Shown piece by piece: positions 16,741-39,549 of a stretch of DNA of 64,000 nucleotides. The position numbers and the translations under genes were made by a program. The notes under the pieces were generated by a model, which was not told where the DNA came from, did no database searches, and worked only from the letters and a program-made list of their open reading frames with translations. The first letter of the stretch is position 1. Each line of letters starts with the position of its first letter. The stretch covers positions 441 through 64,440 of the forward strand of contig CANRCV010000004.1 in the NCBI GenBank assembly GCA_947629205.1, given 5' to 3'. The stretch comes from an uncultured Bacilli bacterium. GTDB lineage: Bacteria > Bacillota_I > Bacilli_A > RF39 > UBA660.

Positions 16741-16772
16741 TTTAAGTTTATAACCCCCCCCCCGTGTGTCAA
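16741..16772 (-). promoter_or_regulatory. Putative sigmaA promoter of GNAT gene with poly(G) in the spacer
   Basis: Minus strand TTGACA(16772..16767)-CAC-G10-T-TATAAA(16752..16747); spacer 14 nt in the sequenced state, 17 nt if the tract were G13. Confidence 0.45.
16754..16763 (-). repeat. Homopolymeric G10 tract (C10 on + strand) in promoter spacer
   Basis: Ten consecutive C on + strand in an otherwise ~28% GC region. Confidence 0.9.
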
Positions 16773-16804
16773 TTAAAGATAAACTATATTTGTAAAATAA
16801 TGTA

Positions 16805-16836
16805 AAATAAAAAAATTCAATTTTATATATTGAATT
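16805..16836 (-). terminator. Intrinsic terminator downstream of endA-like gene
   Basis: aaaaattcaat-tttatat-attgaattttt perfect 11-bp stem flanked by A/T runs. Confidence 0.55.
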
Positions 16837-16856
16837 TTTTAATAGTTATACTTATT

Positions 16857-17564
16857 TTATTCTTTTATCTTGCTCTCTCCAGTTTTATAATCAATTTCTA
16901 CTCCATCTTCTACATTATAAATAAAAACATATATGGATAAAGAAGAACCCCTATCTTCTAAAGAAGATGCTTCTAATAAAACACCATTAGCTAGAAGGTT
17001 ATCATTTTCATAAACGGGTGTAACACGATACAAAACATGATTTTTAGTAGCTTTTATATACTCAGCCACTTGATTTTCAAAAGGAAGCATTCCTTTTGTA
17101 TTCATCTGTCTTGTACAAGTAATTAAGTTTTTGATATTGGCATTTTCTCCTGTTAGTTGATAACCTATTAAGTGACAACGATTATATAAATATTTACCAT
17201 CTACAAAATCATACTTAATTGTATGCCATCCACTAGGTTTAATTGAACCAATACTTTCTCGATCTTTGGTAGGCATTAAATCAAGACCAATATTGGCCAT
17301 TGCCCTTTGAGCTCTATTTAAAGAATCTAGTTCACTATACATTTCAAAAGATGTTGTATTTTGATAGTCTTCTTCTGTAAAATTTGGTTGATTATCATTT
17401 ATAACAACATAGTTTTCTTCCTTATAAGCAGGAATCTCTTCTAATGCATAAGAAGGAGTAACCTTCTTTTGTTGATTGTAATACTCTACTCCTACAAGTA
17501 AGAGAAGAACAATCAAACTAGCAATCAAACTTTTTCTTTTTCTTTTACTCATTTTACACCTCAC
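16857..17564 (-). CDS. endA: Membrane-anchored DNA-entry nuclease (EndA-like DNA/RNA non-specific endonuclease)
   Basis: 235 aa; N-terminal TM anchor; PSGWH, NRCHLIGYQLTG, VLYRVTPVYEN, IDYKTGE align with S. pneumoniae EndA (PPGWH, DRGHLLGYALIG, LDYRTGE). Confidence 0.75.
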   Translation of the reverse strand: MRCKMSKRKRKSLIASLIVLLLLVGVEYYNQQKKVTPSYALEEIPAYKEENYVVINDNQPNFTEEDYQNTTSFEMYSELDSLNRAQRAMANIGLDLMPTKDRESIGSIKPSGWHTIKYDFVDGKYLYNRCHLIGYQLTGENANIKNLITCTRQMNTKGMLPFENQVAEYIKATKNHVLYRVTPVYENDNLLANGVLLEASSLEDRGSSLSIYVFIYNVEDGVEIDYKTGESKIKE

Positions 17565-18277
17565 AAATATTGAAATACATTTCCTAAAGAATCATGAATA
17601 ACAATGTCAGCAAGTGTATCAAAAGATGTACTATCTTTATTAATTAACACTAAATTTTTACCTCTAAAATAATTTATTAACCCACTTGCTGGATATACAC
17701 GTAAACTCGTTCCTGCAACAATTAAGACCTCGGCTTTTTGAATACTTTCTATGGCTTTTGTTAGTATTTCATTATCTAAACTTTCTTCGTATAAAACAAC
17801 ATCTGGTTTTATAATACCTCCACAACTACATCTAGGAATATCTAATGCATCAAATACACTTTCGGCAGGATAAAATTTTTTACAATTCATACAATAATTT
17901 CTTAAAATACTGCCATGTAATTCTAAAACGTTTTGAGCCCCAGCCGTACTATGTAAACCATCAATATTTTGAGTAATAATGGCTTTTAATTTACCAAGAC
18001 GTTCTAATTCTGCTAATTTAATATGCGTAATATTTGGTTGAACACCTAAAGAATTCATTTTATCTTTATAAAATTTATAAAACTCTTTTGGATTGTTCAT
18101 AAAAAAAGTATGACTTAAAATTTCTTCTGGTGGAAACTTATAGTTTTGGTTATACAAACCATCTTTGCTACGAAAATCAGGAATTCCTGATTCTGTTGAA
18201 ACCCCTGCTCCTCCAAAAAAGACAATGTTTTCACATTCTTTTATAATTTCTTTTAATTTTTGAACCTCTTCTGTCAA
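17561..18277 (-). CDS. cobB: NAD-dependent protein deacylase, Sir2 family
   Basis: 238 aa; GAGVSTESGIPDFRS, Zn-ribbon CxxC...CxxC, QNIDGLH. Confidence 0.85.
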   Translation of the reverse strand: MTEEVQKLKEIIKECENIVFFGGAGVSTESGIPDFRSKDGLYNQNYKFPPEEILSHTFFMNNPKEFYKFYKDKMNSLGVQPNITHIKLAELERLGKLKAIITQNIDGLHSTAGAQNVLELHGSILRNYCMNCKKFYPAESVFDALDIPRCSCGGIIKPDVVLYEESLDNEILTKAIESIQKAEVLIVAGTSLRVYPASGLINYFRGKNLVLINKDSTSFDTLADIVIHDSLGNVFQYL

Positions 18278-18289
18278 TGAAAAAACCTC

Positions 18290-18727
18290 CTATTTTTTGA
18301 ATACTTGATTTTCAAAATAAACCTCTTCTAAAAAAACAGGTTCTTGATACATAGTACCTAAAACAGCTAATAAGTAAGCATTAAATTCAAAATCACTTAT
18401 TTCTTGATAACCATTTTTTAAAAGAAAATCTAGTAAATTCTCTTGATAAGAAAACTGAGAAAAGGTTAAATCGACTAAGTAATACGTATTATTATTTGGT
18501 ATTAAAATAAAATGATGTTCATAAGAAAAACCTAAATCCAAAGTATTTATTACTTTACATGGAATATGTTGTTTTAATAATTCTTGATACAAAAAACTAC
18601 TATATATTTTACAAGTTCTTTCTTCTGTTAAATGGTTTAAATCTTCTTTTACTTTCTTTATAGAAGTTATTATTTCTTCTTCTAAATTAATCCCTGTAAT
18701 ATTGGTCATTTTTGAAAATAAATCCAT
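18290..18727 (-). CDS. Hypothetical protein
   Basis: Track ORF trimmed to internal Met with AAGGAG RBS to remove 43-nt overlap with upstream gene; no family recognised. Confidence 0.45.
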   Translation of the reverse strand: MDLFSKMTNITGINLEEEIITSIKKVKEDLNHLTEERTCKIYSSFLYQELLKQHIPCKVINTLDLGFSYEHHFILIPNNNTYYLVDLTFSQFSYQENLLDFLLKNGYQEISDFEFNAYLLAVLGTMYQEPVFLEEVYFENQVFKK

Positions 18728-18744
18728 ATTGTTTAACTCCTTTA

Positions 18745-20151
18745 TTATAGTATACCAAAAAGTAAATCCTTCTGCATACGTAAACAAATTCTTTCTCGAT
18801 AATTTTTATGAAGAATTTTTTGAATTTCTAAAACTTGATTCGTAATAAGATGATCTACTCCATAAGAAGCCATTTCTAATGCTATATCTTCTTGATCCAC
18901 TGTCCAAGCAAATATTTCTTTATTTTCTTTATGTACTTTTTTTACTACACTTTCATCAATTCCTTGATAATGAATACTAAAGGCATCTACCTCTTTATAG
19001 TTTTCAAAATCTAGGGGAAGTTCATTTGTTGTATAACCTATTTTTAAATTAGGATAAAGTTCTTTTACAGTCATTAAATAACTATAGTTAAAAGAGGTAA
19101 TAATGGCTTTATTTTCTAAATGGTATTGGTAGACTAAAGATCCAATTTCTTGTTCAAATGAGGTTCCTTCTTTTTTTGTTTTTAATTCAATATTGACTTT
19201 TAAATGATTCTTTTTGACAAAATTTAAAACCTCTTCTAGTAAGGGTATATGTTCTTCCATATTTTTATAAACTCCTACATTTATGGTTTTTAATTCTTCA
19301 TAAGTAAGATCCCAAAGCGTTTGATTAAGAAGGGCTGTTCGATTTAAATTTCCATCATGAGAAACAACAAGTTGATTGTCCTTAGTTTGCCATACATCTA
19401 GTTCTATAAAATCTGCTCCCGCTTCTTTAGCTTTTTGAAAAGAGGTTAAGGTATTTTCAGGAGCAATAGAGGAATACCCACGATGTCCTTCAATAAAGGG
19501 AATTTTATAATTTTTATTCCAATTCATTTTGGAAAAACTAAAAATATCAAGGAATAAAAACACAAGGAAAAAAGCAATTGTTTTTCTCTTATCAATCAAA
19601 AAGAAGATTTTTTCCTCTTTATTTATTTGCTTGTTGTATAAAGGAACAAATAAGAAAAGAAGAATTTGTAAAAAAATACACCAATAACATATTCCACATA
19701 AAAAATTAAAAAGAAAAAGCAAAAGAAAAAAGGAAATTTGAGCAATTCTTTCTTCTTTATCAAAAGAATTTTTAATAAAAGTGATTAAATAAAATAGAAA
19801 ATAAAGAAAAACAATATACTTAAATACATTTAAAAAGCGATTTAAAAAATCTGGAGCTGTAAAAGTAAGAAACGAATGAAAAAATAAAACAGAAACACAA
19901 GTTGGAAAAGAAAAATAAAATTCCTTTTCTAAAAGATAGGACCAACTCTTTTTTTCTTCTTTTTTATCTAAAGCAAAAAGAAAATGGGTGTAGAATAAAA
20001 AAGGAAAAAATAACAAAAACGTATAAATTCCTCCCACATATACATTGCGAATATAAAATAAAAGAGAATAGAAAAAAGTATAAACTAAACCAAAACCAAA
20101 AGTTATGATTAGTTCTTTTAAAAAATAGTTTACAAATTTATTATCTTTCAT
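18745..20151 (-). CDS. Membrane protein with C-terminal glycerophosphodiester phosphodiesterase domain
   Basis: 468 aa; ~6 TM N-terminal region then GDPD motifs EGHRGYSSIAPENT...ELDVWQTKDNQLVVSHD. Confidence 0.8.
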   Translation of the reverse strand: MKDNKFVNYFLKELIITFGFGLVYTFFYSLLFYIRNVYVGGIYTFLLFFPFLFYTHFLFALDKKEEKKSWSYLLEKEFYFSFPTCVSVLFFHSFLTFTAPDFLNRFLNVFKYIVFLYFLFYLITFIKNSFDKEERIAQISFFLLLFLFNFLCGICYWCIFLQILLFLFVPLYNKQINKEEKIFFLIDKRKTIAFFLVFLFLDIFSFSKMNWNKNYKIPFIEGHRGYSSIAPENTLTSFQKAKEAGADFIELDVWQTKDNQLVVSHDGNLNRTALLNQTLWDLTYEELKTINVGVYKNMEEHIPLLEEVLNFVKKNHLKVNIELKTKKEGTSFEQEIGSLVYQYHLENKAIITSFNYSYLMTVKELYPNLKIGYTTNELPLDFENYKEVDAFSIHYQGIDESVVKKVHKENKEIFAWTVDQEDIALEMASYGVDHLITNQVLEIQKILHKNYRERICLRMQKDLLFGIL

Positions 20152-20290
20152 ACTGCCACCTTTTATTTCATTATAAAAAAAATTTTTAATTTACACAATC
20201 TAAAATTAGTATGTAAAAAAGAAAAAAACATATACAAACGCCCAGCACCTTCAAAAAAGTAGGAATAGATTATAAAAGTAAGGAGCGATT

Positions 20291-21094
20291 GTGATGTTCG
20301 AATCTCTATTAAATTTACACCCTATTTTACAAGCGGGGTTTGCAACTCTTTTTACTTGGAGTATCACGGCTATTGGTGCTGCCTTAGTTTTCTTTTTTAA
20401 AAAAATTAATAAAAATATTATGGATGGCATGCTTGGTTTTGCTGGTGGTGTTATGATAGCTGCCTCTTTCTTTTCCTTAATTGCTCCAGCAATTACGATG
20501 GCAGAGAATTTACATTTAATTACTTGGCTTGTTGTTTTTATTGGTTTTTTCTTAGGAGGAGTGCTTCTTTTTATTGGAGACAAAATCTATGATGTTTTTG
20601 AATCCCATCATAAAACAATGCGTAAAAGTAGTTTTAAACGTTGCTTTATGTTAATTACCTCTATAACATTACATAATATTCCAGAAGGCATGGCCGTTGG
20701 AGTTGCTTTTGGTTCAGTAGTATATGGACTAGATGGAGCAACAATTGCTGCAGCATGGACACTGGCTTTAGGAATAGGACTACAAAATTTTCCTGAAGGA
20801 AGTGCTGTTAGTATGCCTCTTCGTCGTGAAGGAATGAGTCGTAAAAAAGCTTTCTTCTTAGGTCAACTTAGTGGAATTGTAGAACCTATTGCTGGTATTC
20901 TAGGAGCAATACTTGTTATAAAGGTACGTATTTTACTTCCCTATTTACTTGCTTTTGCTGCTGGGGCTATGATTTATGTTGTTGTAGAAGAATTAATCCC
21001 TGAAAGTCAAACGAATAAGAAAAAAGATGTTATGGCTTTATTTACTTTAATTGGATTTTCCGTTATGATGATACTCGATGTTGCTTTAGGTTAA
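20291..21094 (+). CDS. zupT: ZIP-family zinc transporter
   Basis: 267 aa, 8 TM; HNIPEGMAVG and PEGSAVS motifs; AAGGAG RBS. Confidence 0.85.
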   Translation: MMFESLLNLHPILQAGFATLFTWSITAIGAALVFFFKKINKNIMDGMLGFAGGVMIAASFFSLIAPAITMAENLHLITWLVVFIGFFLGGVLLFIGDKIYDVFESHHKTMRKSSFKRCFMLITSITLHNIPEGMAVGVAFGSVVYGLDGATIAAAWTLALGIGLQNFPEGSAVSMPLRREGMSRKKAFFLGQLSGIVEPIAGILGAILVIKVRILLPYLLAFAAGAMIYVVVEELIPESQTNKKKDVMALFTLIGFSVMMILDVALG

Positions 21095-21097
21095 AAA

Positions 21098-21132
21098 ATA
21101 ATTCTTGCCCAAAAACAAGAATTATTTTTTTA
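21098..21132. terminator. Bidirectional intrinsic terminator
   Basis: ataattcttg-cccaaaaa-caagaattat perfect 10-bp stem with A-run upstream and T-run downstream. Confidence 0.7.
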
Positions 21133-21262
21133 TCATTTTTATTCCAATCATAATCCATAAGAGACCTAAAACTACATATATAATTTCTTTTTTGAGTACA
21201 CTACTTACTAAAAAACAAATTCCTGCTAGGATTGGCAGTACGGCTGCTATTTTTCTATTCAT
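21122..21262 (-). CDS. Putative 46-aa membrane peptide
   Basis: MNRKIAAVLPILAGICFLVSSVLKKEIIYVVLGLLWIMIGIKMIKK; AGGAG RBS 7 nt upstream; 3' end overlaps terminator stem. Confidence 0.3.
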   Translation of the reverse strand: MNRKIAAVLPILAGICFLVSSVLKKEIIYVVLGLLWIMIGIKMIKK

Positions 21263-21271
21263 ACACGACTC

Positions 21272-23472: not shown

Positions 23473-24909
23473 ATGCAAGAAGAACTTTTAAAACGTTTAA
23501 AACAAGAATTTTCTAAAAATACCGATTTTATTGTTAAAAAAATTAAAACCAAACATTTTAAAACGATTTATGTTGTCTATTTAGAAACCGTTACCGGTAG
23601 TGATAAAGTAAATGATTATATTTTAAAAGGATTAACCAAAATTAATAACTTAAAAAGTGTTAAGAAAAAGGATATTGCTAGTATTATTCCCGGGCCAAAT
23701 ACAGTAGAAGTAACAAAACCTGACCAAATGGAATACTATTTAACCAATGGATTTACTTTAGTTTTAACGAGTGAAGAAATTCTTGCTTTTGAAACCAAAG
23801 CCGATATCAATCGAAGCGTTAGTGTACCAGAGGTGCAAAAATCGATTTATGGACCAAGTGATGCTTTTACCGAAAACATTCAAATAAACTTAGGTCTTTT
23901 AAAACGTCGTATTAAATCCAGTCATTTAAAAAGTGATGATTTGAATATGGGAAGAAAAACCAATACCAAGGTCCAAATTTTATACTTTGATGATATAACA
24001 GACATGCAGATTGTGAATAGTATAAAAGATAAACTTTCTAAAATTGATGTGGATGGAATCATTGATGCTGGAAATATTGCCAATATTTTATGTGAAGATG
24101 AAGCAACACCCTTTCCTACAATTTCGCAAAGTGAAAGACCTGATGTAGTGGCTACAGCTCTTCTAGAAGGAAAAGTATGTATAATGGTGGATACTTCTCC
24201 TTTTGTTTTAATCTTGCCGGCTTTTTTTGCTGATTTTATAAATCCGGTAGTAGATAACTACAATCGAAATGTCAATGTAAATTTTTTAAAAGTTTTACGT
24301 TTTGCATCTTTCTTTCTAACCATGATGATTCCCGGTGTTTATATTGCTTTAGTCAACTACAATATGGAAACGATTCCAACAAGCTTGCTTGTCAATTTTG
24401 CGATGCAAAATGCTGAGGTCCCCTTCCCGACCATTATCGAAGCCATTGTTATGATTATCGTTTGTGAAATATTAAGAGAAAGTGATTTACGTTTTCCCAG
24501 TAATTATGGAAGTGCAATATCGATACTTGGAGCTTTAGTTTTAGGAGAAGCCGCTGTTGCAGCAGGAATCGTAAGTCCCATTATGATTATCATTATTGCC
24601 TTTACATTTATAACCAGTTTAATATTTACGGAACTCGAAGTCATCAACGCCATTCGGTATTTTCGTTTTATTTTTTTAATCCTGGCCGCTTTATATGGTC
24701 TTTATGGAATTGCTCTTGGGCTTATCTACTTTAGCATTCATATTACGAGTGTTTCCACAGCTGGAAAACCATACTACTATCCAATTGTTCCTTTTGATTT
24801 TACTTATATTAAAAAAACTCTATTTAAAGTAAAATACGTAAACGATACCAAACGTAGTAAATTACTCGCTCGTAAAAATCTAATAAAGAAAAAGGTGAAG
24901 CAACAATGA
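23473..24909 (+). CDS. gerAA: Spore germinant receptor A subunit (GerAA/GerKA family)
   Basis: 478 aa; soluble N-domain plus C-terminal 5-6 TM region typical of GerA family. Confidence 0.8.
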   Translation: MQEELLKRLKQEFSKNTDFIVKKIKTKHFKTIYVVYLETVTGSDKVNDYILKGLTKINNLKSVKKKDIASIIPGPNTVEVTKPDQMEYYLTNGFTLVLTSEEILAFETKADINRSVSVPEVQKSIYGPSDAFTENIQINLGLLKRRIKSSHLKSDDLNMGRKTNTKVQILYFDDITDMQIVNSIKDKLSKIDVDGIIDAGNIANILCEDEATPFPTISQSERPDVVATALLEGKVCIMVDTSPFVLILPAFFADFINPVVDNYNRNVNVNFLKVLRFASFFLTMMIPGVYIALVNYNMETIPTSLLVNFAMQNAEVPFPTIIEAIVMIIVCEILRESDLRFPSNYGSAISILGALVLGEAAVAAGIVSPIMIIIIAFTFITSLIFTELEVINAIRYFRFIFLILAALYGLYGIALGLIYFSIHITSVSTAGKPYYYPIVPFDFTYIKKTLFKVKYVNDTKRSKLLARKNLIKKKVKQQ

Positions 24910-25988
24910 AAAGAAAATGGATTATCCTTAGTTTCTTAATATTATTTTGTAGTGGTTGCTATGATTATACGGAAATAAATGATATGTCAATTGTTTCTGG
25001 TATTTCGATTGATTATGAAAAAGATAAGTATAACGTAGCTTTTGAAATTTTAAATACCCAAAATAAAGAAAACCAAGAAACAGATGAAAAAGTCTATGCG
25101 GCTTTTGGTAGTGGTTCTTCTCTATCGGAAGCCTTCTCCAATACTTCATTAGAACTTGCAAACTTTCCTTATATGGCGCATTTAAAAACCATCATCATTA
25201 GTGAAGAAGTGGCAAGATACCACGTAGAAGATATCATTGATTTTTTAATACGAGATAATCATATTCGTAATATTTTTTATTTAACCGTTGCAAAAGGAGG
25301 AAGTGCTTATGATATTCTAAGTAAAACTGATAAAAACAATCCGGTTGTCAGTACTGCTATTGCTAACTTAATTGATAGTGATATATATGCCAATCATATT
25401 GCATCGAATTTAAACTTTGAACAATTTGTAATGAACATTATTGATCCAAGAAAAGATACCTATGTTTCTTCGATTGAAATAAAAGATGATATTTTAAAAC
25501 TAGGACCTCTTGCTATTTTTAAATCCTATCAAATGCAAGAGTATTTAACAGAAGAAGAATCTGCAACCTTTAATGTAATGATTGGAGAATCAAAAGAAGT
25601 CCATTTTAAAGTCAGTTGTCCAAATGATGCAAGTAAATTTATTTCTTTAACGACTTTTAACAAACCAAAATCAAACGTTCAAATTGATGATAACAACGTT
25701 ACCTTAAAAACAGAGGTTGAAACACGTATTGTAGAAAACCATTGTACTATGAACTTTAAAGATAGCAACACCTATGAACAAATTGAAAAACAAATTAAAA
25801 ACCAACTCGAAAAAAACATGCAAAAAGTAATGGAAACGAGTTTAAAAAATGATAGTGATATTTTTCGCATAGAACAAATTTATTATCAAAAATACAAACA
25901 AGATACGGATTTTAAGAAACTACATTACAATTATCAAGCAAGTGCCATCATTAATAGAAATGGATTAATATTTGAGGTGAAATCATGA
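24906..25988 (+). CDS. gerAC: Spore germinant receptor C subunit lipoprotein (GerAC family)
   Basis: 360 aa; lipobox LILFCSGC; 4-nt overlap with A subunit; A-C-B order as in gerK operons. Confidence 0.75.
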   Translation: MKRKWIILSFLILFCSGCYDYTEINDMSIVSGISIDYEKDKYNVAFEILNTQNKENQETDEKVYAAFGSGSSLSEAFSNTSLELANFPYMAHLKTIIISEEVARYHVEDIIDFLIRDNHIRNIFYLTVAKGGSAYDILSKTDKNNPVVSTAIANLIDSDIYANHIASNLNFEQFVMNIIDPRKDTYVSSIEIKDDILKLGPLAIFKSYQMQEYLTEEESATFNVMIGESKEVHFKVSCPNDASKFISLTTFNKPKSNVQIDDNNVTLKTEVETRIVENHCTMNFKDSNTYEQIEKQIKNQLEKNMQKVMETSLKNDSDIFRIEQIYYQKYKQDTDFKKLHYNYQASAIINRNGLIFEVKS

Positions 25989-27022
25989 AATTAGAAAATT
26001 TTTCCGTTCATTATTTTTTAACAAGGTCCTTATTTTTAGGAATTGGATTTTCGTTAATTATTGGGGTTACCAAACAAGATAGTATTCTAGCCTTTATTAT
26101 TGGTACTTTACTCGGTTTAATCTTTATTCATCTCATGAATAAAATTCAACAAGAGAAGGGTTCGAAAACCTTAAATGAACTATTAACAGAAATGAAAGGT
26201 TTAGGTATTTTTTTACGAATTGTTTTTATTTCCTATGGTGTCATTTTGTTATGTGAAGGTTTAACGTTTATTCAATTATTTGCTAGTTCTTTTTTCTTAA
26301 TTCATACCCCTATTTGGTTTATTTCTTTACCACTCGTTCTATTATTACTTCGTATTTGTAAAAATGGTAAAACCACCACTTTTCGTGTTGCCACTTGTTT
26401 GTTTCCTATCTCTCTTTTCTTAACCATTATTTCTTTAGGAACTTTACTTGGTTATGCCAAACTGGATAATGTAAATCCCTTACTCGTAACACTACCAATC
26501 CATTTTTTAAAATCGGTATTTTATTATACAACCTTATCCGTATCTCCCTCTATTTTAATGCTTCTAACAGAAAATAATAAAAGCAATACGTTTTCTTACT
26601 TACTTGGAAGTCTTACTTTAATTTTAAAAATGTTTTTAATCATTGCCATATTAGGTCCAATACTTGCTACCATCTATCGCTTCCCAGAATACATTATTTT
26701 AAAAGAAATTAAAATTTTAGATTTTATTGAAAAAATCGAAAACGTTGTTGCTTTATCTTGGATTTTTGATGAATTTATTTATTTATCAATGGCTTCTTTA
26801 TTAGTAAAAGAATTAATTCCTAAAAAATTTAATTTTCTTCATACTTTACTTGTTATAGCTTCTTTCTTTATTGCTTTCCTATTTATAGGAAAATATTATC
26901 AAAATGAACTCAGTATTTATTATTTATTTCCTATTATTACAACTATCATTGTTCTTCTTATTCTTTTTACTTTCTTTTTCTACTTTTTTAAACAAAAGAA
27001 AAAACAAAAAATAGCAAATTAG
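25985..27022 (+). CDS. gerAB: Spore germinant receptor B subunit (GerAB, APC-superfamily permease)
   Basis: 345 aa, ~10 TM; translationally coupled to C subunit. Confidence 0.75.
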   Translation: MKLENFSVHYFLTRSLFLGIGFSLIIGVTKQDSILAFIIGTLLGLIFIHLMNKIQQEKGSKTLNELLTEMKGLGIFLRIVFISYGVILLCEGLTFIQLFASSFFLIHTPIWFISLPLVLLLLRICKNGKTTTFRVATCLFPISLFLTIISLGTLLGYAKLDNVNPLLVTLPIHFLKSVFYYTTLSVSPSILMLLTENNKSNTFSYLLGSLTLILKMFLIIAILGPILATIYRFPEYIILKEIKILDFIEKIENVVALSWIFDEFIYLSMASLLVKELIPKKFNFLHTLLVIASFFIAFLFIGKYYQNELSIYYLFPIITTIIVLLILFTFFFYFFKQKKKQKIAN

Positions 27023-33789: not shown

Positions 33790-36690
33790 TTATTTTTTAA
33801 TGATATTGTTTACATTTACTTGATACTTATCAAATCGTTTCGTAACTCTTCCTTGAATTTCTGCAATATCTTTCACTTTTAAATTTTCCAATAACCCAAT
33901 TTGTTTATGAAAAACAACAAAGGTAGAAGCATTGGTTTCATCACTTGCTTCCACAAATGCCATCTCTTCATTATTTTTTGTTTTGAGTCTCTTTATACTC
34001 TCTATTAATACCACGCATCTTACTTGTTTGTCAAAATAATTTTTTATATTTTTTAATTTCATAATGTTTGAATCATTATAAATACTTGTTGGATGATTGG
34101 TAATATAAAACCCATAGCTTTCTAATTCTTTTTGATTTACATTTTCTTCCATAGGATATTGTTCTAATACGGGTTTTAAAAGGAGTGGAGAATCTACACT
34201 ACTTACTAATTCTGCATAATTAAAAACTGCAGGTATATTTTTAAGTAGAGTTGTCATATTTCCAAATTCTTCTAAAATCCCAGCATAGATTAAAGATTCC
34301 ACCATTTTTGTCGTTATAGAATAAGGTTTCATTCTACTAACAAAATCTATAAAATCGGTAAAAAGCCCTTTTTCTCGTTCTTTTAATAAATCTTCTATAA
34401 AATGAGAACTTAAACCCTTTACAATAGAAAAAGGTAGTATCAATTGGCTTTCGATAATCTTATATTCTTTTTCACTTTTATTAATAGAAGGATGGACAAT
34501 TTCTAAATCTAATTTTTTAGCTTCTCTTAAATATTCTTTGGTTTTAATTTCACTCCCAATCGATAGATTTAATAAATTCGTCATAAAATACATAGGAAAT
34601 TTTACTTTTAAATAGGCCATTTGATACCCAATTAGAGCATAAGAAACAGAATGGGATTTATTAAAACCATATCCAGCAAATTTTAATATTAAATCGTATA
34701 ATTCTTCAATCTTTTGTTTTGGATAGCCTTTTTGTAAAGCTCCATTTATAAACTTAACTCGTTCTTGCTCTATAATTTCTTTTTTCTTTTTACTCATAGC
34801 TCTTCTTATAATATCTGCCTCTGAAAAACGATATCCACCAATTTCTACTAATATTTGCATAACTTGTTCTTGATACACAATAATACCTTGTGTTTCTTTT
34901 AAAATGGGTTCTAATTCTGGCAAAAGATAAGTTACTTTCTCTTTTTTTTCTTTTCTTCTTACAAAAGTAGATAAATTATCCATAGGTCCAGGACGATATA
35001 AGGCGATAACAGCCACTAAATCACTAAATTTTGTTGGTTTTACTTTTTGTAAAAAAGAACGCATTCCCATACTTTCAAATTGAAATATTCCAGTTGTATT
35101 GGCATCACTAAAGAGTTTTAAAACCTCGGCATCTTCTAAATTAATTTTATTAATATTTAAATGTTTCCCCGTATCTTTTAAAATTAAATCTAAAGTACTT
35201 GATAAAATATATAAATTTTTAATCGCTAATAAATCCATTTTTAAAAGGCCTAATTCTTCTAAGTATTCCATCGTAATTCCGGTTGATATAGAATTACCTA
35301 CTTTTAATATAGGAATAACATCATCTAAATTAACTCTTGATATAACTATACCTGCTGCATGTGTTGAAATATTTTTCTTAAATCCTTCTATTTTCATCGC
35401 CAGTTTATAAACCTTTTGTAAAGAAGAATTATTTTTTAACATATTTTTTACTTTTTCTTTTTCTAAATTCTCTTTTAAATTTTTATTTGGTTCTATTTCT
35501 TTTAAAAGTTGTTCAAAATGTCCATCTTCTATTTCTACTATTCTTGCTATTTCCCTTAATGCCAGTTTACTTTTTAAAGTAGCAAACGTCATAATTGAAG
35601 CTACTTTCTTTTCACCATAACGTTGTTTAATATATTCAATAACCTCTCCTCTTCGTAAGTTATCAAAATCAATATCAATATCGGGCATGGTTACTCTTTC
35701 TGGATTTAAAAATCTTTCAAAAAGCAAATGATATTTTAAAGGATCTATATCCGTAATCCCTAGAGTATAACAAACAAGGGAACCCACAGCACTCCCTCTT
35801 CCAGGACCTACATAAATATGATTCTTTTTAGCAAATAAAACATAATCATATACAATTAAAATATAATCCACAAATCCCATTTTATTAATAACACTTAATT
35901 CATACTCTAATCGTTTTTCATATTCATCTGTCACTTGATTATTTAATCTTTTCTTTAATCCTTTTTCCGTTAAATTTTTTAAATAAGCATAACGATCTTT
36001 TATTTCAGCATTATAAGAAGGAATATAATTTTCATTTTTAGGAATACAAATCGTAATTAAATCACTAAACTCTTTCGTTGTTTTTTGATCACTTTCATTG
36101 TCGTTTTCATGATAATAATTATTTTCATACTCTTTTAATTGATAATCTTTTGCTTTTGTATCCGTACGAATCATATTTAAATAATCTAAATAAAGTGTAT
36201 CTTCTTTTTTTAAAGAATGAATGTCATTTAAATAAACTATATTTTTACTTTGTAATAAAGCATGGGTTTTTTCTAATTCATTTTGGTATGCCAAATAAAC
36301 GATTTCATAAATAGAAGAAAGTTCTTTATAGTAAGAATAAGTTGCATAAGGAAGAACACATAGTATATTTTTTTTATAAAGTTCTAATTCTACAATACTA
36401 ATTTCTTTTTCCATCACAAGAGTATGAATTTTTAATAAATTTTGATATCCTACATAATCTTTAGAATATAAATAAATTGGTAGATGATTTAAGGTGATTT
36501 CTAAACCAATAATTGGTTTTATATTATTTTCTATACACTTATTATAAAATTCCATAACACCATATAAATTCTCATCTACAATAGCACAAGTTGAAATATT
36601 TTTTTCTTTTAAAAAATCTATTAAAGAATCAATGGTAATTGTACTTTTTAATAAGGAATAATCTGTTGTAATTTTAAGTGGTATAAGCAT
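33790..36690 (-). CDS. dnaE: DNA polymerase III alpha subunit, DnaE type
   Basis: ~967 aa from the third Met (RBS GGGGGAGGAA 8 nt upstream); PHP domain, GFNKSHSVSYA pol core motif, OB fold; directly downstream of polC. Confidence 0.9.
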   Translation of the reverse strand: MLIPLKITTDYSLLKSTITIDSLIDFLKEKNISTCAIVDENLYGVMEFYNKCIENNIKPIIGLEITLNHLPIYLYSKDYVGYQNLLKIHTLVMEKEISIVELELYKKNILCVLPYATYSYYKELSSIYEIVYLAYQNELEKTHALLQSKNIVYLNDIHSLKKEDTLYLDYLNMIRTDTKAKDYQLKEYENNYYHENDNESDQKTTKEFSDLITICIPKNENYIPSYNAEIKDRYAYLKNLTEKGLKKRLNNQVTDEYEKRLEYELSVINKMGFVDYILIVYDYVLFAKKNHIYVGPGRGSAVGSLVCYTLGITDIDPLKYHLLFERFLNPERVTMPDIDIDFDNLRRGEVIEYIKQRYGEKKVASIMTFATLKSKLALREIARIVEIEDGHFEQLLKEIEPNKNLKENLEKEKVKNMLKNNSSLQKVYKLAMKIEGFKKNISTHAAGIVISRVNLDDVIPILKVGNSISTGITMEYLEELGLLKMDLLAIKNLYILSSTLDLILKDTGKHLNINKINLEDAEVLKLFSDANTTGIFQFESMGMRSFLQKVKPTKFSDLVAVIALYRPGPMDNLSTFVRRKEKKEKVTYLLPELEPILKETQGIIVYQEQVMQILVEIGGYRFSEADIIRRAMSKKKKEIIEQERVKFINGALQKGYPKQKIEELYDLILKFAGYGFNKSHSVSYALIGYQMAYLKVKFPMYFMTNLLNLSIGSEIKTKEYLREAKKLDLEIVHPSINKSEKEYKIIESQLILPFSIVKGLSSHFIEDLLKEREKGLFTDFIDFVSRMKPYSITTKMVESLIYAGILEEFGNMTTLLKNIPAVFNYAELVSSVDSPLLLKPVLEQYPMEENVNQKELESYGFYITNHPTSIYNDSNIMKLKNIKNYFDKQVRCVVLIESIKRLKTKNNEEMAFVEASDETNASTFVVFHKQIGLLENLKVKDIAEIQGRVTKRFDKYQVNVNNIIKK

Positions 36691-36786
36691 AAGACATTCC
36701 TCCCCCATCATGGTATATTTTTATTATAACATGAACAAATGTTTAAGGGTATAGGTAAGTTTCAAAAAATGAAAAAAAGGAAAAAT

Positions 36787-37917
36787 TTATTTTCCTAAAT
36801 ATGTAATTCTTGCATATCCATTTCCAGAATTTCCAACCATTGTATTTTGTGTTCCATCATGTTTGGGCATAACCTCTTTCCCGGATTTCATTTCCGTATT
36901 TGTAAAAACAAGTCCGGAATAATGAATAGAATCTCCAGTATGTTGAATGTTATTTTCAACAGATTCTTGTTTTATGGCATTACATCCCTCATATCCAGAA
37001 ATAAAGGATGAACCACCTGAGGCTGAGGTTGCATTTGTAATTCCTTCACTACGACCACCATAATAGCCTCCTCCAGCACCAGCAACACCACAATCGCCAT
37101 TACCAACACTACCTGATCCAGCACATTGGCCATCTCCAACCCCACTTTGTCCTTTACCAAAAGCATAACCAGTTGTTTGATTGATTGCTGATTTTGTTCC
37201 AACTAAATCAGCAGATAAGCCACCTCCTGCTCCTGGAGCGTAACTCCAGCTAGCTCCTCCACCACCTGCTGCAACCATAATTCTAGATTTTAAACTAGCA
37301 AAAGAGTCCCACAAACCATTTACAAGACGAATGTCGGTGGCTCCTCCTCCACCACCACTACTTTCATCATCTGCTTTATCAGGAACACCATTACCACCAC
37401 CATTATATCCACCAAGAGATTCTACTCTTTTACTAGCATTTGCACCAGCACCACCTACATAAAGATATAATGTTTGCTCTTTTTGTAAGCTTATTTCACC
37501 TTTGGTATATGCACCATTTCCTCCATCATTATAAGACACACCTTGATAAAGAGATTTTCCACCTTCAGCTCCCCATAATTCTATTTTATATTTTCCTTGT
37601 AATGGTACTGTAAATGATTGTTCACTTCCTGTATAATCAAATGTCCATTCTGTTCCTTCTTTTATAATAAAATTAATGCTACATGTCGTTGGACTCTTTT
37701 TTAGACTTGATACAAATAATCCCCATCTCTCTGTATCCCATTCTCCAATGGCATCATTATCACATTCTACAATTATATCTCCATAGTTTCCTTTTTGTGG
37801 AACGGTATTTGTTGTTTCTCCATTTATTTTCAAAGCAATGATATTTACATCGTTTTTTAAACTAAAATCAGGTACAACGCCTTTTATAACATCAAAACTT
37901 TTTTCTGTTTTATACAT
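36787..37917 (-). CDS. Phase-variable surface protein with ALK/LTK-like glycine-rich domain; annotated ORF is the out-of-frame body of a longer gene
   Basis: 376 aa ORF; no RBS before its Met; reading frame open upstream through the G10 tract; Gly-rich region GGGYYGGRSEGITNATSASGGSSFISG resembles ALK GRD GGGGYIGGNAASNND...DGVSFIS (Pfam Gly_rich). Confidence 0.7.
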   Translation of the reverse strand: MYKTEKSFDVIKGVVPDFSLKNDVNIIALKINGETTNTVPQKGNYGDIIVECDNDAIGEWDTERWGLFVSSLKKSPTTCSINFIIKEGTEWTFDYTGSEQSFTVPLQGKYKIELWGAEGGKSLYQGVSYNDGGNGAYTKGEISLQKEQTLYLYVGGAGANASKRVESLGGYNGGGNGVPDKADDESSGGGGGATDIRLVNGLWDSFASLKSRIMVAAGGGGASWSYAPGAGGGLSADLVGTKSAINQTTGYAFGKGQSGVGDGQCAGSGSVGNGDCGVAGAGGGYYGGRSEGITNATSASGGSSFISGYEGCNAIKQESVENNIQHTGDSIHYSGLVFTNTEMKSGKEVMPKHDGTQNTMVGNSGNGYARITYLGK

Positions 37918-38035
37918 AGCAAAAGTATGGTATAGTGTTATACCACCAATTAATAAAATAATTCCTATAATTGTACTAATTAAAATTTGTTTTTGTTTTT
38001 TATTTTTGATAAATCTTTCTAATCTAGGTTTGTGT

Positions 38036-38098
38036 TTATCTAATATACCCCCCCCCCAGACTAGACTCTAGAGTTGGGAGGTTTTTATTTTTCTTCAT
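38036..38098 (-). other. Leader ORF ending just after the G10 tract (OFF-state product of the phase-variable gene)
   Basis: GGAGGAAG RBS + ATG 38098; encodes MKKNKNLPTLESSLGGGYIR-stop; a 9-G allele would fuse it in frame to ...ILDKHKPRLERFIKNKKQKQILISTIIGIILLIGGITLYHTFA-MYKTEKSF (TM anchor). Confidence 0.7.
38048..38057 (-). repeat. Homopolymeric G10 tract (C10 on + strand) inside 5' coding region
   Basis: Ten consecutive C at 38048..38057; frame analysis shows G9 (or G12) gives an in-frame full-length protein. Confidence 0.9.
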
Positions 38099-38123
38099 TT
38101 TTTCTTCCTCCTACTATACTTTT

Positions 38124-38152
38124 ATTATAAACGAATTTCTTATTCTTGAAAA
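38124..38152 (-). promoter_or_regulatory. SigmaA-type promoter of phase-variable gene copy A
   Basis: Minus strand TTTTCA(38152..38147)-17 nt-TATAAT(38129..38124); identical in copy B. Confidence 0.5.
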
Positions 38153-38181
38153 GTTTTTTTCATAGTAATCCCTATTCTTCC

Positions 38182-38229
38182 TTTGACAATTAAACTGAAA
38201 TTTCATCATTTTTCAGTTTAATTGTCAAA
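38182..38229. repeat. Perfect palindromic element (19-bp stem, 10-nt loop), copy 2; likely terminator of upstream paralog
   Basis: tttgacaattaaactgaaa-tttcatcatt-tttcagtttaattgtcaaa; core and loop shared with 22081..22118. Confidence 0.75.
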
Positions 38230-38234
38230 TACTT

Positions 38235-39371
38235 TTACTGATTTTCATTTATAAATATTCTATAAGGATTTTGTTGAGTTCCATTACCACTTTGAAATAA
38301 TACTTTTGATTTAAGATAGAAAGACGGATAAATTTTAGTATTACTATAATATCCAGCATGAAAGTTCCATAATTGGCCTGTTTCATCCATGTACCATGCA
38401 TCTGGATTCCCAGAGATCGTTGTTGTCAAAAACCATTGTTTGTTCTTGCTAAATATCCAATTATTTATTACACATGAGCTATTATCACTCTCATTATTCC
38501 ATAGTTTTAAAGATTGTTGCATACATTGTGTTCTAGTTTTTAAAGCTGATCCGCTTGTTGCATATCCATAATCACTTGCATATATTAATCCAATTTTTGT
38601 ATTAGTTGATTTAGAATAACCATCACGAACACTATTTCCACGTTCTGCTTTATAAAATTCAGTTACGGTACTTAAATTGGTTTCCCCTAAATACCATTTT
38701 GCAATATCAATATACGTTTGATATGATTTTATACTACCCCAAAATTCTTCATTTAAAATATTTGTATTTAATTCGCTACTAATCCAATTATTTTGTTGTA
38801 ATTCTGGATGTCCATACCAAGAAGCTTCACTGTAGTTAACATATTTAATTAATTTTACTCTATCTTCATAAATTCCATTCTCACTTGATTGAGTAGGTAT
38901 TATACCTATAATTCGATATAAATTGTTTTCACTACATTCTCCATTTTCTTCTAAACATACATAGTTATTAGGATTAGCACCTATATATCGATAGTCCGTT
39001 TTAGCACTTTCACCAGTTTGATCAGTAGCTTCGTGTGTTTGCACTATTAATCCACTTGCTCCATCTGCAACATTTGTTACTTTTGATTTTAAATAAGTAG
39101 AAAATATTGGAGCATTAAAATCAATGGTACATTTAATTCTACTTTGATTATTGCTGTTTTTTAATTTTAAAGACCATGTTGTATCATCCCAATCTGCTTC
39201 TACTCCACCATCACATTTTATATCTTTCTTAGTAAATCCTTCATTTTGATTAGGAAAAGAAACATCACTTGTTTTTACACCATTTATACTAAAAGCAAGT
39301 GTTACATCTCCACTACTAAAATCAGGCACAACACCTTTTATAACATTAAAAGACTTTTCCATTTTATACAT
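38235..39371 (-). CDS. Phase-variable surface protein paralog (divergent C-terminal domain); annotated ORF is out-of-frame body
   Basis: 378 aa; first ~85 aa homologous to 36787..37917 product (MYK.EKSF.VIKGVVPDFS...EWD..W); C-terminal Trp/Tyr-rich domain ending GNGTQQNPYRI; same upstream architecture. Confidence 0.7.
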   Translation of the reverse strand: MYKMEKSFNVIKGVVPDFSSGDVTLAFSINGVKTSDVSFPNQNEGFTKKDIKCDGGVEADWDDTTWSLKLKNSNNQSRIKCTIDFNAPIFSTYLKSKVTNVADGASGLIVQTHEATDQTGESAKTDYRYIGANPNNYVCLEENGECSENNLYRIIGIIPTQSSENGIYEDRVKLIKYVNYSEASWYGHPELQQNNWISSELNTNILNEEFWGSIKSYQTYIDIAKWYLGETNLSTVTEFYKAERGNSVRDGYSKSTNTKIGLIYASDYGYATSGSALKTRTQCMQQSLKLWNNESDNSSCVINNWIFSKNKQWFLTTTISGNPDAWYMDETGQLWNFHAGYYSNTKIYPSFYLKSKVLFQSGNGTQQNPYRIFINENQ

Positions 39372-39486
39372 AGCAAAAGTGCGGTATAAAGTTATACCAC
39401 CAATTAGTACTATGATTCCTACTATTGTACTAATTAAAATTTGTTTTTGTTTTTTATTTTTAATAAATCTTTCTAATCTAGGTTTA

Positions 39487-39549
39487 TTATTTAATATACC
39501 CCCCCCCCAGACTAGATTTGCTGGTTGGGAGGTTTTTATTTTTCTTCAT
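39487..39549 (-). other. Leader ORF ending after G10 tract, copy B
   Basis: ATG 39549; MKKNKNLPTSKSSLGGGYIK-stop; G9 allele fuses to ...ILNNKPRLERFIKNKKQKQILISTIVGIIVLIGGITLYRTFA-MYKMEKSF. Confidence 0.7.
39499..39508 (-). repeat. Homopolymeric G10 tract (C10 on + strand) inside 5' coding region, copy B
   Basis: Ten consecutive C at 39499..39508; same -1 requirement for in-frame fusion as copy A. Confidence 0.9.

What the first reader, a model, noticed from the sequence alone, without database searches (positions are those of the whole stretch)
16754..39508. Three exact 10-nt G/C homopolymers in 64 kb of ~28% GC DNA, all at regulatory or 5'-coding positions
At this composition the chance of a given 10-mer being all C is of order 1e-9 per position, so even one such tract is unexpected. 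The window has three, and no other G/C run longer than ~5. All three lie on the coding strand as poly(G). Two are at equivalent positions in paralogous leaders and one is in a promoter spacer. This looks like a genome-wide contingency-locus system based on poly(G). I am not aware of one described for this lineage.
Basis: seen in the sequence. Interest (0 to 1): 0.75.

Follow-up and report, generated by a model that had tools for sequence, protein, structure and literature searches.

The report
Poly-G on/off switches in gut Bacilli
An uncultured, AT-rich gut bacterium carries three runs of ten G's placed where gaining or losing one G should switch two surface-protein genes on or off and retune a promoter, which is the textbook "contingency locus" mechanism seen here in a lineage and gene family where I found no earlier report.

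Summary
The window (28.5% GC) has exactly three C10 runs, which read as G10 on the gene strand. About 0.003 are expected by chance, and the next longest G/C run is a single C6.

Two tracts lie 14 codons into two tandem paralogous genes that share a 320-bp 5' cassette. At G10 both genes stop after 20 codons. At G9, G12 or G6 they encode 436-437-aa proteins with a membrane anchor and extracellular domains.

The third tract fills the spacer of a TTGACA-16-TAAACT promoter upstream of a GNAT acetyltransferase operon.

Homologous leaders in related gut MAGs carry G8, G10 and G12 in DNA. At protein level they show GG, GGG and GGGG forms and interrupted forms. One contig ends inside a tract, and about 230 kb of related sequence has no other G/C run longer than 6.

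Strand bias, the 9-10 length mode and the interrupted homologues match Campylobacter poly-G phase variation. The promoter tract matches Neisseria porA.

Verdict: slipped-strand poly-G contingency loci, a new member of a known kind. Variation within a single population and genome-wide extent could not be tested.

One unexplained extra is an invariant CCTCCCAAC motif in every leader, complementary to both the Shine-Dalgarno sequence and the G tract.

The parts
16754..16763 (-). Tract 1: G10 (C10 on the + strand) inside a promoter spacer
   Evidence: The tract lies between TTGACA and TAAACT, 35 nt upstream of the GNAT start codon.
16745..16772 (-). Promoter-like site: TTGACA (16772-16767), 16-nt spacer CACG10TTA, TAAACT (16750-16745)
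   Evidence: 10 of 12 consensus positions, the best site in the intergenic region. G11 would give the optimal 17-nt spacer and G9 would give 15 nt. The effect on expression is inferred.
16285..16719 (-). GNAT-family acetyltransferase gene (144 aa), first gene downstream of tract 1. Its RBS AGAGGTG is at 16735-16729.
   Evidence: Pfam Acetyltransf_1, E 1e-15; only sub-threshold RimI/AAC similarity, so the substrate is unknown.
15084..16268 (-). 394-aa protein with C-terminal hydrophobic segments. It starts 16 nt after the GNAT stop and is probably in the same operon.
   Evidence: no match in Pfam, NCBIfam or PADLOC.
38048..38057 (-). Tract 2: G10 in codons 14-17 of geneA
36787..38098 (-). geneA. 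The ATG is at 38098-38096 and the RBS AGGAGG at 38112-38107. At G10 translation stops at TAA 38038-38036 after 20 aa. At G9, G12 or G6 the gene gives a 436, 437 or 435-aa protein: basic tail, TM helix, Ig-like stalk and an ALK/LTK-type glycine-rich domain.
   Evidence: frames. (PF12810, E 3e-53). (P0001 is the annotated truncated 376-aa ORF).
38073..38081 (-). Invariant CCTCCCAAC motif of the geneA leader, complementary to both the SD and the G tract
38124..38152 (-). geneA promoter-like site TTTTCA-17-TATAAT, inside the duplicated cassette
39499..39508 (-). Tract 3: G10 in codons 14-17 of geneB
38235..39549 (-). geneB. The ATG is at 39549-39547. At G10 translation stops at TAA 39489-39487 after 20 aa. 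At G9 or G12 the gene gives a 437 or 438-aa protein: basic tail, TM helix (model residues 32-60), beta-sandwich stalk and a cargo domain with no Pfam match.
   Evidence: (family of more than 3700 proteins). (AF2 model, pLDDT 84). (only fold match: Thomasclavelia ramosa IgA peptidase, E 3e-6).
39524..39532 (-). Invariant CCTCCCAAC motif of the geneB leader
39575..39603 (-). geneB promoter-like site TTTTCA-17-TATAAT
37861..38176 (-). Copy A of the duplicated 5' cassette (promoter, RBS, switch leader, signal-anchor coding region). Copy B is at 39315-39630.
   Evidence: 88.7% identity over 319 nt. (alignment A1).
39315..39630 (-). Copy B of the duplicated 5' cassette
38182..38229 (.). Perfect 19-nt inverted repeat with a 10-nt loop, between the geneB stop and the geneA promoter. 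It is a likely terminator or operator that separates the two transcription units.
   Evidence: repeat I7.

Best explanation
The three G10 tracts are hypermutable simple-sequence repeats, that is, contingency loci that change length by slipped-strand mispairing during replication.

Tracts 2 and 3 are translational switches. Each lies 14 codons after an RBS-preceded ATG, in an N-terminal extension in front of the signal-anchor of a surface protein. At G9, G12 or G6 the ribosome reads through into the membrane anchor and extracellular domains. At G10, the assembled state, or at G11, it stops within about 5 codons, and the remaining internal ORF lacks an export signal. The two tandem genes have separate promoters and separate tracts, so a population can display four combinations of the two proteins. 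Related strains place different cargo domains behind the same switch cassette.

Tract 1 is a transcriptional rheostat. It sets the -35/-10 spacing of the promoter of a GNAT acetyltransferase operon: 15 nt at G9, 16 nt at G10 and 17 nt at G11.

Shown here: tract positions, frame consequences, tract-length differences between homologous loci, and absence of such tracts elsewhere. Inferred: the slippage mechanism, reversibility, surface exposure of the proteins, and the effect of spacer length on transcription.
For: - **Excess over chance.** Three G10 tracts against about 0.003 expected, a gap at lengths 7-9, and depletion of long A/T runs.
- **Frame logic.** Both genes are OFF at G10 and G11 and ON at G6, G9 and G12. 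Out-of-frame stops fall 3-5 codons after the tract, and the same design is seen in L037, L066 and L067.
- **Length polymorphism at the homologous site, DNA verified.** G8 and G10 in L066, G10 in L037 and L038, G12 (ON) in L067, and G10 twice in the window.
- **Length polymorphism at protein level.** LGGIL, LGGGIL and LGGGGTL forms, other-frame 'WGGGIL' starts, and interrupted LGRGTL and LGEGNV forms.
- **An assembly breaks at a tract.** The L038 contig ends inside a third leader's tract.
- **The tract is built against codon bias.** GGG is 8% of Gly codons and CTG is 1.4% of Leu codons.
- **The extension is an add-on.** Most family members in relatives start directly at MKL(E/Q)KF, so the protein does not need the tract-bearing extension.
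- **No tracts elsewhere.** About 230 kb of related low-GC Bacilli loci have no G/C run longer than 6 other than these leaders.
- **Promoter placement.** TTGACA-16-TAAACT with the tract in the spacer. The same architecture in N. meningitidis porA gives high expression at 11G, about 2-fold lower surface expression at 10G and up to 13-fold lower at 9G (PMC3639595).
- **Match to Campylobacter statistics.** There, 95% of intragenic tracts are poly-G on the coding strand, lengths peak at 9 (53%) and 10 (26%), and non-variable homologues have shorter or interrupted tracts (PMC6321876).
Against: - No read-level or same-strain data were available, so high-frequency reversible switching within a population is not demonstrated. 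L037 and L038, the only two independent assemblies of one locus, are both G10.
- Five of the six complete DNA-verified coding tracts are out of frame for the canonical start. This is compatible with phase variation, where OFF states are common, but it also leaves room for recoding.
- Homopolymer lengths in MAG consensus sequences can be wrong by one base.
- For tract 1 there is no comparative evidence at all, and a GNAT of unknown substrate is not an obvious contingency gene.
- Mismatch-repair status is unknown.
Confidence: 0.8

Rival explanations
1. Programmed recoding. The genes are meant to be expressed from the G10 template, through transcriptional slippage by RNA polymerase on the C10 template or through +1 ribosomal frameshifting on G GGG GGG GGG U. 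The apparent frameshift would then be a fixed expression-level device rather than a heritable switch.
For: Five of the six complete DNA-verified coding tracts are out of frame for the canonical ATG, and four of them are exactly G10. A predicted hairpin involves the tract. Long homopolymers are known slippage sites for RNA polymerase (background in PMC3711429).
Against: A recoding site should keep a fixed length and a fixed frame relationship. Here the homologous site is G8 (needs +1 nt), G10 (needs -1 nt) and G12, G9 or G6 (already in frame). Known slippage sites are mostly A/T runs. No stimulatory rare or stop codon abuts the tract. The promoter tract cannot be explained this way. Leaky expression by slippage could still coexist with DNA-level switching.
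Confidence: 0.08
2. Artefact or decay. The tracts, or their exact lengths, are sequencing or assembly errors, or the two genes are ordinary pseudogenes that happen to be frameshifted.
For: The window and its relatives are metagenome-assembled. Homopolymer length calls are error-prone. The L038 contig ends in a G run, and two-colour Illumina chemistry can add spurious G's at read ends.
Against: The same tract, with the same flanks (CCTCCCAAC ... CTG-Gn-TAYAYTA), recurs internally in contigs from at least four independent assemblies and samples. Downstream ORFs of 376 and 378 aa are otherwise intact. Both paralogs are interrupted at the identical site. Coding density is 90% with long intact ORFs, which argues against systematic homopolymer errors. 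An error of one base would change the ON/OFF call but not the nature of the element.
Confidence: 0.04
3. The G tract is primarily an RNA structural element. The invariant CCUCCC downstream of the start codon is an anti-Shine-Dalgarno sequence, and the G tract competes for it as an anti-anti-SD. Tract length would then tune ribosome-binding-site accessibility, and frame switching would be secondary or act together with this.
For: CCTCCCAAC is the only invariant block besides the tract in all 7 leaders. It uses the Leu codon CTC, which is 1.4% of Leu codons. It is perfectly complementary to GGAGG and, with one G-U pair, to G6. In all six foldable leaders the predicted SD pairing is about 0.5 to 1.0 at G8 or shorter, and drops to 0.01-0.5 by G10 in four of them and by G11-G12 in the other two. 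MFE folds have z-scores of -2.3 to -4.2.
Against: This is purely thermodynamic prediction. Any G run pairs with a pyrimidine run, and no covariation test is possible because both partners are invariant. The result depends on how much flanking sequence is folded (compare). The peptide (N/I/S)LPT could instead be what is conserved. It does not explain tract 1 and does not replace the frame effect, which follows directly from the sequence.
Confidence: 0.2

Closest known systems
Campylobacter jejuni / Campylobacter spp. poly-G/C contingency loci (phasome)
   Same: Both are AT-rich genomes with homopolymeric G/C tracts far beyond chance, mostly inside ORFs. Tracts lie almost always as poly-G on the coding strand, with lengths peaking at 9-10. 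Non-variable homologues have shorter or interrupted tracts. Both intragenic and intergenic tracts occur (PMC6321876; PMC8355987).
   Different: Campylobacter is a Gram-negative epsilonproteobacterial pathogen, whereas this is an uncultured Bacilli gut organism that carries a spore-germination gene. Campylobacter tracts sit mainly in glycosyltransferase, capsule and flagellar-modification genes at various positions. Here the tract sits in a portable N-terminal leader cassette in front of a signal-anchor, shared by a family of surface proteins. Switching rates and mismatch-repair status are known for Campylobacter and unknown here.
Neisseria meningitidis porA (and opc) promoter-spacer homopolymers
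   Same: A poly-G tract of 9-11 lies between the -35 and -10 hexamers, so that tract length sets spacer length and grades expression (PMC3639595).
   Different: porA encodes an outer-membrane porin under antibody selection. Here the downstream genes are a small GNAT acetyltransferase and an unknown membrane protein. No expression data or length variants exist for tract 1.
Mycoplasma hyorhinis vlp family (also M. fermentans p78 poly-A)
   Same: A family of surface-protein genes carries a conserved 5' region. Each gene is transcribed separately and switched on or off individually by its own homopolymeric tract, giving combinatorial surface variation. The lineage is allied to Bacilli (PMC10502178; PMC3711429).
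   Different: The vlp tract is poly-A in the promoter, so the switch is transcriptional, and the products are lipoproteins. Here the tract is poly-G in the coding leader, so the switch is translational, and the products are signal-anchored proteins with globular cargo domains.
Repeats in the leader or signal-peptide coding region: Neisseria opa (CTCTT), H. influenzae lic1 (CAAT with alternative ATGs), S. pyogenes sclB (CAAAA)
   Same: In these systems a repeat placed just after the start codon, ahead of or within the export signal, acts as a translational on/off switch. L066 also offers a second ATG in another frame, as lic1 does.
   Different: Those systems use multi-nucleotide repeat units, whereas this is a homopolymer. 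None is known to have a conserved anti-SD-like motif.
Group A Streptococcus mga poly-C tract
   Same: Slipped-strand mispairing at a homopolymeric C/G tract inside a coding region of a member of the Bacilli (PMC10330708).
   Different: It is a single locus in a regulator gene, observed mainly as loss of function in culture. It is not a multi-locus, cassette-borne surface-protein switch.

Membership tests
SSR contingency locus (Moxon/Bayliss definition) | A simple-sequence repeat longer than genome composition predicts | tested here: met
   Three G10 tracts against 0.001-0.003 expected. No runs of length 7-9. Long A/T runs are depleted.
SSR contingency locus (Moxon/Bayliss definition) | The repeat is positioned so that gain or loss of a unit changes expression, through reading frame or promoter geometry | tested here: met
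   Frame analysis shows ON at G6, G9 and G12 and OFF at G10 and G11 for both genes. Tract 1 lies inside the 16-nt spacer of TTGACA/TAAACT.
SSR contingency locus (Moxon/Bayliss definition) | Repeat number varies between homologous loci, strains or related genomes | tested here: met
   G8, G10 and G12 are seen in the DNA of homologous leaders. GG, GGG, GGGG and interrupted forms are seen in called proteins. This was not shown for tract 1.
SSR contingency locus (Moxon/Bayliss definition) | High-frequency, reversible length change within a clonal population | not testable with these tools
   No reads or isolates were available. The only locus seen in two assemblies (L037 and L038) is G10 in both. 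One contig ends inside a tract, which is only suggestive.
SSR contingency locus (Moxon/Bayliss definition) | The controlled genes encode surface or host/phage-interaction functions | tested here: inconclusive
   geneA and geneB are predicted to have an N-terminal TM anchor and extracellular domains: PF12810 for A, and for B a confident AF2 model with a TM helix at 32-60 and beta-rich domains. Surface exposure is inferred. The GNAT operon function is unknown.
Promoter-spacer homopolymer switch (porA type) | The homopolymer lies between recognisable -35 and -10 hexamers at near-optimal spacing | tested here: met
   TTGACA-16-TAAACT matches 10 of 12 consensus positions. It is followed by an RBS and ATG at the expected distances.
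Promoter-spacer homopolymer switch (porA type) | Expression level depends on tract length | not testable with these tools
   This needs reporter assays or transcript quantification of length variants.
Programmed recoding site (transcriptional slippage or ribosomal frameshift) | A conserved frame relationship and conserved slippery-site length across homologues | tested here: not met
   Homologous sites are G8, G9 (inferred), G10 and G12, which need +1, 0, -1 and 0 nt corrections respectively.

The most novel reading that the evidence does not exclude
The leader may be a portable 'switch cassette' that works at two levels. At the DNA level, poly-G slippage sets the reading frame. At the RNA level, the same tract would act as an anti-anti-Shine-Dalgarno element that competes with the SD for the invariant CCUCCC motif. 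In-frame alleles of different length (G6, G9, G12) would then give graded rather than equal expression. The cassette would be grafted by recombination onto many different surface-protein cargos in a clade of uncultured commensal gut Bacilli, which would make this a multi-locus phasome in a non-pathogen.
Probability: 0.2. Interest if true: 0.7.

Novelty: new member of a known kind. Interest (0 to 1): 0.45.

Why it matters
A 2025 review (PMC11868660) lists the apparent restriction of genomes with many phase-variable loci to pathogens as an open question, possibly caused by database bias. This window shows three poly-G loci in 64 kb of an uncultured, presumably commensal, gut Bacilli genome. The same switch leader appears on different cargo genes in related MAGs. 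If confirmed, it extends Campylobacter-style poly-G phase variation to a Gram-positive-type commensal lineage.

It also has a practical consequence for annotation. Gene callers currently report these genes as N-terminally truncated ORFs, or start them at spurious upstream codons (P0001, P0022, P0169). The conserved CCUCCC motif gives a concrete, testable hypothesis about coupling between repeat length and ribosome-binding-site access.

Tried and rejected
- **Syntenic loci.** A genome-contig scan with the neighbouring DnaE found nearest genomes at only 67-69% identity ('uncultured Bacilli bacterium', rabbit gut). The syntenic regions lack geneA, geneB and any G/C run of 7 or more.
- **JGI metagenome pattern scan.** Searching for GTCTG6-N(0-9)-GTATATTA gave 18 hits, all unrelated chance matches.
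- **Exact-protein look-ups.** Window proteins and NCBI-only homologues P0001-P0003, P0243 and P0244 are not on record. The inferred G9 and G6 tracts of P0002, P0064 and P0243 therefore could not be checked in DNA.
- **Word-indexed protein search with the 93-aa leader** found only 3 hits, all without the extension. The exhaustive HMMER search was needed.
- **Known RNA and repeats.** Rfam and tRNA scans of the window found nothing. The tandem-repeat scan found no other SSR arrays. The inverted-repeat scan found no invertible-promoter signature around geneA and geneB.
- **Function of the tract-1 operon.** PADLOC gave no defence-system match for the GNAT operon, geneA or geneB. NCBIfam gave only sub-threshold GNAT matches.
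- **PDB sequence searches** for geneA and the geneB family gave no hits.
- **Rejected readings.** A prophage or mobile-element context was rejected because the neighbours are PolC, DnaE, an HD phosphohydrolase and FtsK. A G-quadruplex was rejected because there is only a single G run.

Full report
**Observation**

The window is 28.5% GC and nearly all genes are on the - strand. It contains exactly three C10 runs on the + strand, at 16754-16763, 38048-38057 and 39499-39508. These read as G10 on the gene strand.

C runs fall off steeply: 7135, 1549, 174, 36, 7 and 1 for lengths 1-6. Nothing occurs at lengths 7-9, then three runs at exactly 10. The longest G run is 5. A first-order Markov model expects 0.0026 C runs of 10 or more.

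The single C6 (3814-3819) encodes the conserved DGMGGH motif of a PP2C phosphatase. It is also G6 in a relative, so it is an ordinary coding feature.

A/T runs of 9 or more are strongly depleted (T>=9: 1 observed against 21 expected; T>=10: 0 against 9). The genome generally avoids slippage-prone homopolymers, which makes the three G10 tracts more conspicuous.

**Tracts 2 and 3**

On the - strand each tract lies in a leader that runs AGGAGG, 8 nt, ATG, 13 codons, CTG, G10, TATATTA(G/A)ATAA. With G10 or G11 translation ends after 19-20 codons. With G9, G12 or G6 it continues into proteins of 436 aa (geneA, 36787-38098) and 437 aa (geneB, 38235-39549).

The full-length proteins have four parts:
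- a basic tail (KNKKQKQ);
- one hydrophobic helix, residues 32-60 in the AF2 model;
- a small beta-sandwich stalk;
- a cargo domain.

The cargo of geneA is an ALK/LTK-type glycine-rich domain (PF12810, E 3e-53). The cargo of geneB has no Pfam match but belongs to a family of more than 3700 proteins. Its only structural match is the IgA peptidase of Thomasclavelia ramosa, a member of the Erysipelotrichales (Foldseek E 3e-6).

The ORFs that public annotation reports (P0001, P0124) begin at an internal Met just after the hydrophobic helix. They would therefore lack any export signal.

The two genes share a 5' cassette of about 320 bp at 88.7% identity. It contains a TTTTCA-17-TATAAT promoter, the RBS, the leader and the anchor-coding region. 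Beyond it the cargo diverges. A perfect 19-nt inverted repeat separates the two transcription units.

**Tract 1**

Tract 1 lies in the 137-nt gap between a non-specific endonuclease gene and a 144-aa GNAT acetyltransferase gene. The consensus scan places it inside the spacer of TTGACA-16-TAAACT, which matches 10 of 12 positions. An RBS (AGAGGTG) and the ATG follow at the expected distances. G11 would give the optimal 17-nt spacer.

The GNAT gene is followed 16 nt later by a 394-aa membrane protein. Neither has a specific family, defence-system or substrate assignment.

**Lineage**

The neighbouring DnaE is only 67-69% identical to its best matches among 185,579 species representatives. These matches are MAGs from rabbit gut labelled 'uncultured Bacilli bacterium'. 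Rumen 'Erysipelotrichaceae' MAGs match at 43-44%. The window also holds PolC, a GerXA-like spore-germination protein and ComG-like pilins. One distant geneB-family hit is annotated Candidatus Onthousia, which is Bacilli incertae sedis. The source is therefore an uncultured, low-GC Bacilli gut organism.

**Comparative evidence**

1. Most homologues of both genes in related genomes begin directly at MKL(E/Q)KF.KNKKQK, with their own RBS. The roughly 22-residue extension that carries the tract is therefore an add-on that the protein does not need.

2. A subset of homologues has the extension. DNA was obtained for seven leaders (alignment A4):
   - window A and B: G10 and G10;
   - L037 and L038, two assemblies of one locus: G10;
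   - a third leader in L038, where the contig ends inside the tract;
   - L066: G8 and G10;
   - L067: G12, in frame, giving MKKERNILPTSRKRLGGGGTL....

   All out-of-frame states reach a stop within 3-5 codons.

3. An exhaustive HMMER search with the P0002 leader (79 aa) against 1.84 billion representatives found 123 proteins. Their N-termini include:
   - LGGIL, LGGGIL and LGGGGTL, which are in-frame alleles differing by three G's;
   - 'WGGGIL' and 'MGGGIL' starts, from other frames or from starts next to the tract. In L038 the 'WGGGIL' form (P0022) was verified to be a G10 tract read from a TTG start, and in L066 the related 'TPGGGIL' form (P0169) is a G8 tract read from an ATG that overlaps the SD;
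   - interrupted forms LGRGTL and LGEGNV.

4. L037 and L038 are 100% identical up to about 10 nt beyond the tract. They then diverge to 88% and finally to unrelated cargo. Different cargos therefore sit behind the same switch in closely related strains.

5. In about 230 kb of sequence from related low-GC Bacilli, the only G/C runs longer than 6 are these leader tracts.

6. The tract is encoded against codon bias. GGG is 8% of Gly codons and CTG is 1.4% of Leu codons.

**Mechanism**

The simplest account is the classical one. Slipped-strand mispairing at the homopolymer produces heritable, reversible changes of one base. These switch translation of geneA and geneB on or off independently and grade transcription from the GNAT promoter.

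The details match the best-studied poly-G system closely. In Campylobacter, 77% of G/C tracts are intragenic and 95% of those are poly-G on the coding strand. Lengths peak at 9 (53%) and 10 (26%). Non-variable homologues carry shorter or interrupted tracts (PMC6321876).

The promoter tract has the same architecture as N. meningitidis porA. There, 11G, 10G and 9G between the -35 and -10 hexamers give high, about 2-fold lower and up to 13-fold lower surface expression (PMC3639595).

The arrangement of tandem paralogs with a conserved 5' region, each carrying its own homopolymer, recalls the Mycoplasma hyorhinis vlp family. The vlp tract, however, is poly-A in the promoter (PMC10502178).

Not shown here: length heterogeneity within one population, reversibility, switching rates, surface exposure of the proteins, and any effect of tract 1 on transcription.

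**Rivals**

- **Programmed recoding.** Five of the six complete DNA-verified coding tracts are out of frame, which suggests transcriptional slippage or ribosomal frameshifting. But a recoding site should keep a fixed length and frame. Here the homologous site needs +1, 0 or -1 nt depending on the locus. Some leaky expression by RNA-polymerase slippage cannot be excluded.
- **Artefact or pseudogene.** The same internal tract with the same flanks recurs in independent assemblies, and the downstream ORFs are intact. An error of one base in a MAG consensus would change only the ON/OFF call.
- **RNA-level role.** This is discussed in the next section.

**Unexplained feature**

Besides the tract, the only invariant block in all seven leaders is CCTCCCAAC, 15-18 nt upstream of the tract. 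It uses the Leu codon CTC, which is 1.4% of Leu codons. This argues for a nucleotide-level constraint.

CCUCCC is complementary both to the Shine-Dalgarno GGAGG about 30 nt upstream and to the G tract. ViennaRNA predicts a CCUCCC:G-tract hairpin in four leaders, SD:CCUCCC pairing in the G8 leader and a mixture in L066b. When the tract length is varied in silico, predicted SD pairing is about 0.5 to 1.0 at G8 or shorter. It drops to 0.01-0.5 by G10 in four of the six leaders and by G11-G12 in the other two.

The G tract might therefore also act as an anti-anti-SD, so that in-frame alleles of different length are not equivalent. This is thermodynamic prediction only. It depends on how much sequence is folded and cannot be tested by covariation. 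I give it about 20%.

**Novelty and score**

The mechanism is textbook. The lineage, the gene family and the cassette organisation appear to be undescribed. Searches returned poly-G/C phase variation in Campylobacter, Helicobacter, Neisseria, Klebsiella, Mycobacterium and group A Streptococcus, but nothing for this group.

[quoted passage not shown] Three loci in 64 kb of a presumed commensal bears on that question.

I rate this a new member of a known kind, with interest 0.45. My confidence in the contingency-locus explanation is about 0.8 overall. It is higher for tracts 2 and 3 and lower for tract 1.

Noticed in passing
window 38073-38081 and 39524-39532 (- strand); L037 7535-7543; L066 and L067 leaders: CCTCCCAAC is invariant in all seven poly-G leaders and uses a Leu codon (CTC) that is 1.4% of Leu codons. 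It is complementary to both the Shine-Dalgarno sequence and the G tract. Folding predicts that the SD becomes free only when the tract is about G10 or longer.
   Followed up: partly
whole window: Long A/T homopolymers are strongly depleted relative to a first-order model (T>=9: 1 observed against 21 expected; T>=10: 0 against 9; A>=10: 0 against 2.5). This suggests selection against slippage-prone runs everywhere except the three G10 tracts.
   Followed up: partly
L037 7572-9195 compared with L038 7594-8887: Two assemblies of the same locus are 100% identical through the promoter, the leader and about 10 nt past the G10 tract. They then diverge to unrelated cargo domains (556 aa with no Pfam match against 446 aa with a glycine-rich domain). 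This looks like cargo swapping behind a constant switch cassette.
   Followed up: partly
L038 8945-9015: The contig ends inside the G tract of a third tandem leader (...AGTCGTCTGGGGG, then end of contig). Three other assemblies of this locus (L039-L041) end about 0.15 kb after the preceding gene. The assemblies seem to break at the tract or the variable cassette.
   Followed up: no
L037 5380-5661, L042 461-913, L061 9697-9915, L065 6050-6271: In relatives, family members that lack the poly-G extension sit next to a divergently transcribed small XRE/HTH_3 gene. The window's poly-G-switched copies have no such neighbour, which hints at two alternative modes of control for the same gene family.
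   Followed up: no
L066 2998-3065: In the G8 leader, an ATG that overlaps the Shine-Dalgarno sequence (AGATGGAGG) opens the frame that is in phase at G8. Two start codons in different frames could therefore give expression at two of the three tract phases, as at H. influenzae lic1.
   Followed up: no
window 23473-27022 (+ strand): This block of three + strand genes starts with a GerXA-like spore-germination protein (NCBIfam E 4e-76). The next gene starts with a lipoprotein-like signal. It resembles a germinant-receptor operon, which would imply a spore-forming lifestyle for this uncultured lineage.
   Followed up: partly
window 47098-47580, 56072-56662, 56659-57273 (- strand): Three small proteins have prepilin-type N-terminal GFxxxE motifs (ComGC/ComGE/ComGF-like). 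Many distant homologues of geneA carry the same prepilin motif (PF07963) instead of the TM anchor.
   Followed up: no
window 38182-38229: A perfect 19-nt inverted repeat with a 10-nt loop lies between the geneB stop and the geneA promoter. It is AT-rich, so the terminator scan did not call it.
   Followed up: no
L047 (about 2380-2398) compared with L050 (about 942-961): Two unrelated metagenome contigs (36-38% GC) caught by the pattern scan carry the same locus with G8 in one and G9 in the other, between otherwise identical flanks. This is an incidental example of poly-G length polymorphism in another organism.
   Followed up: no
window 16857-18277 (- strand): Directly upstream of tract 1 lie a secreted-type non-specific endonuclease (PF13930) and an ORF with a Sir2-like sequence motif, next to the GNAT acetyltransferase. 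Whether this pairing of an acetyltransferase with a possible deacetylase has any function is unknown.
   Followed up: no
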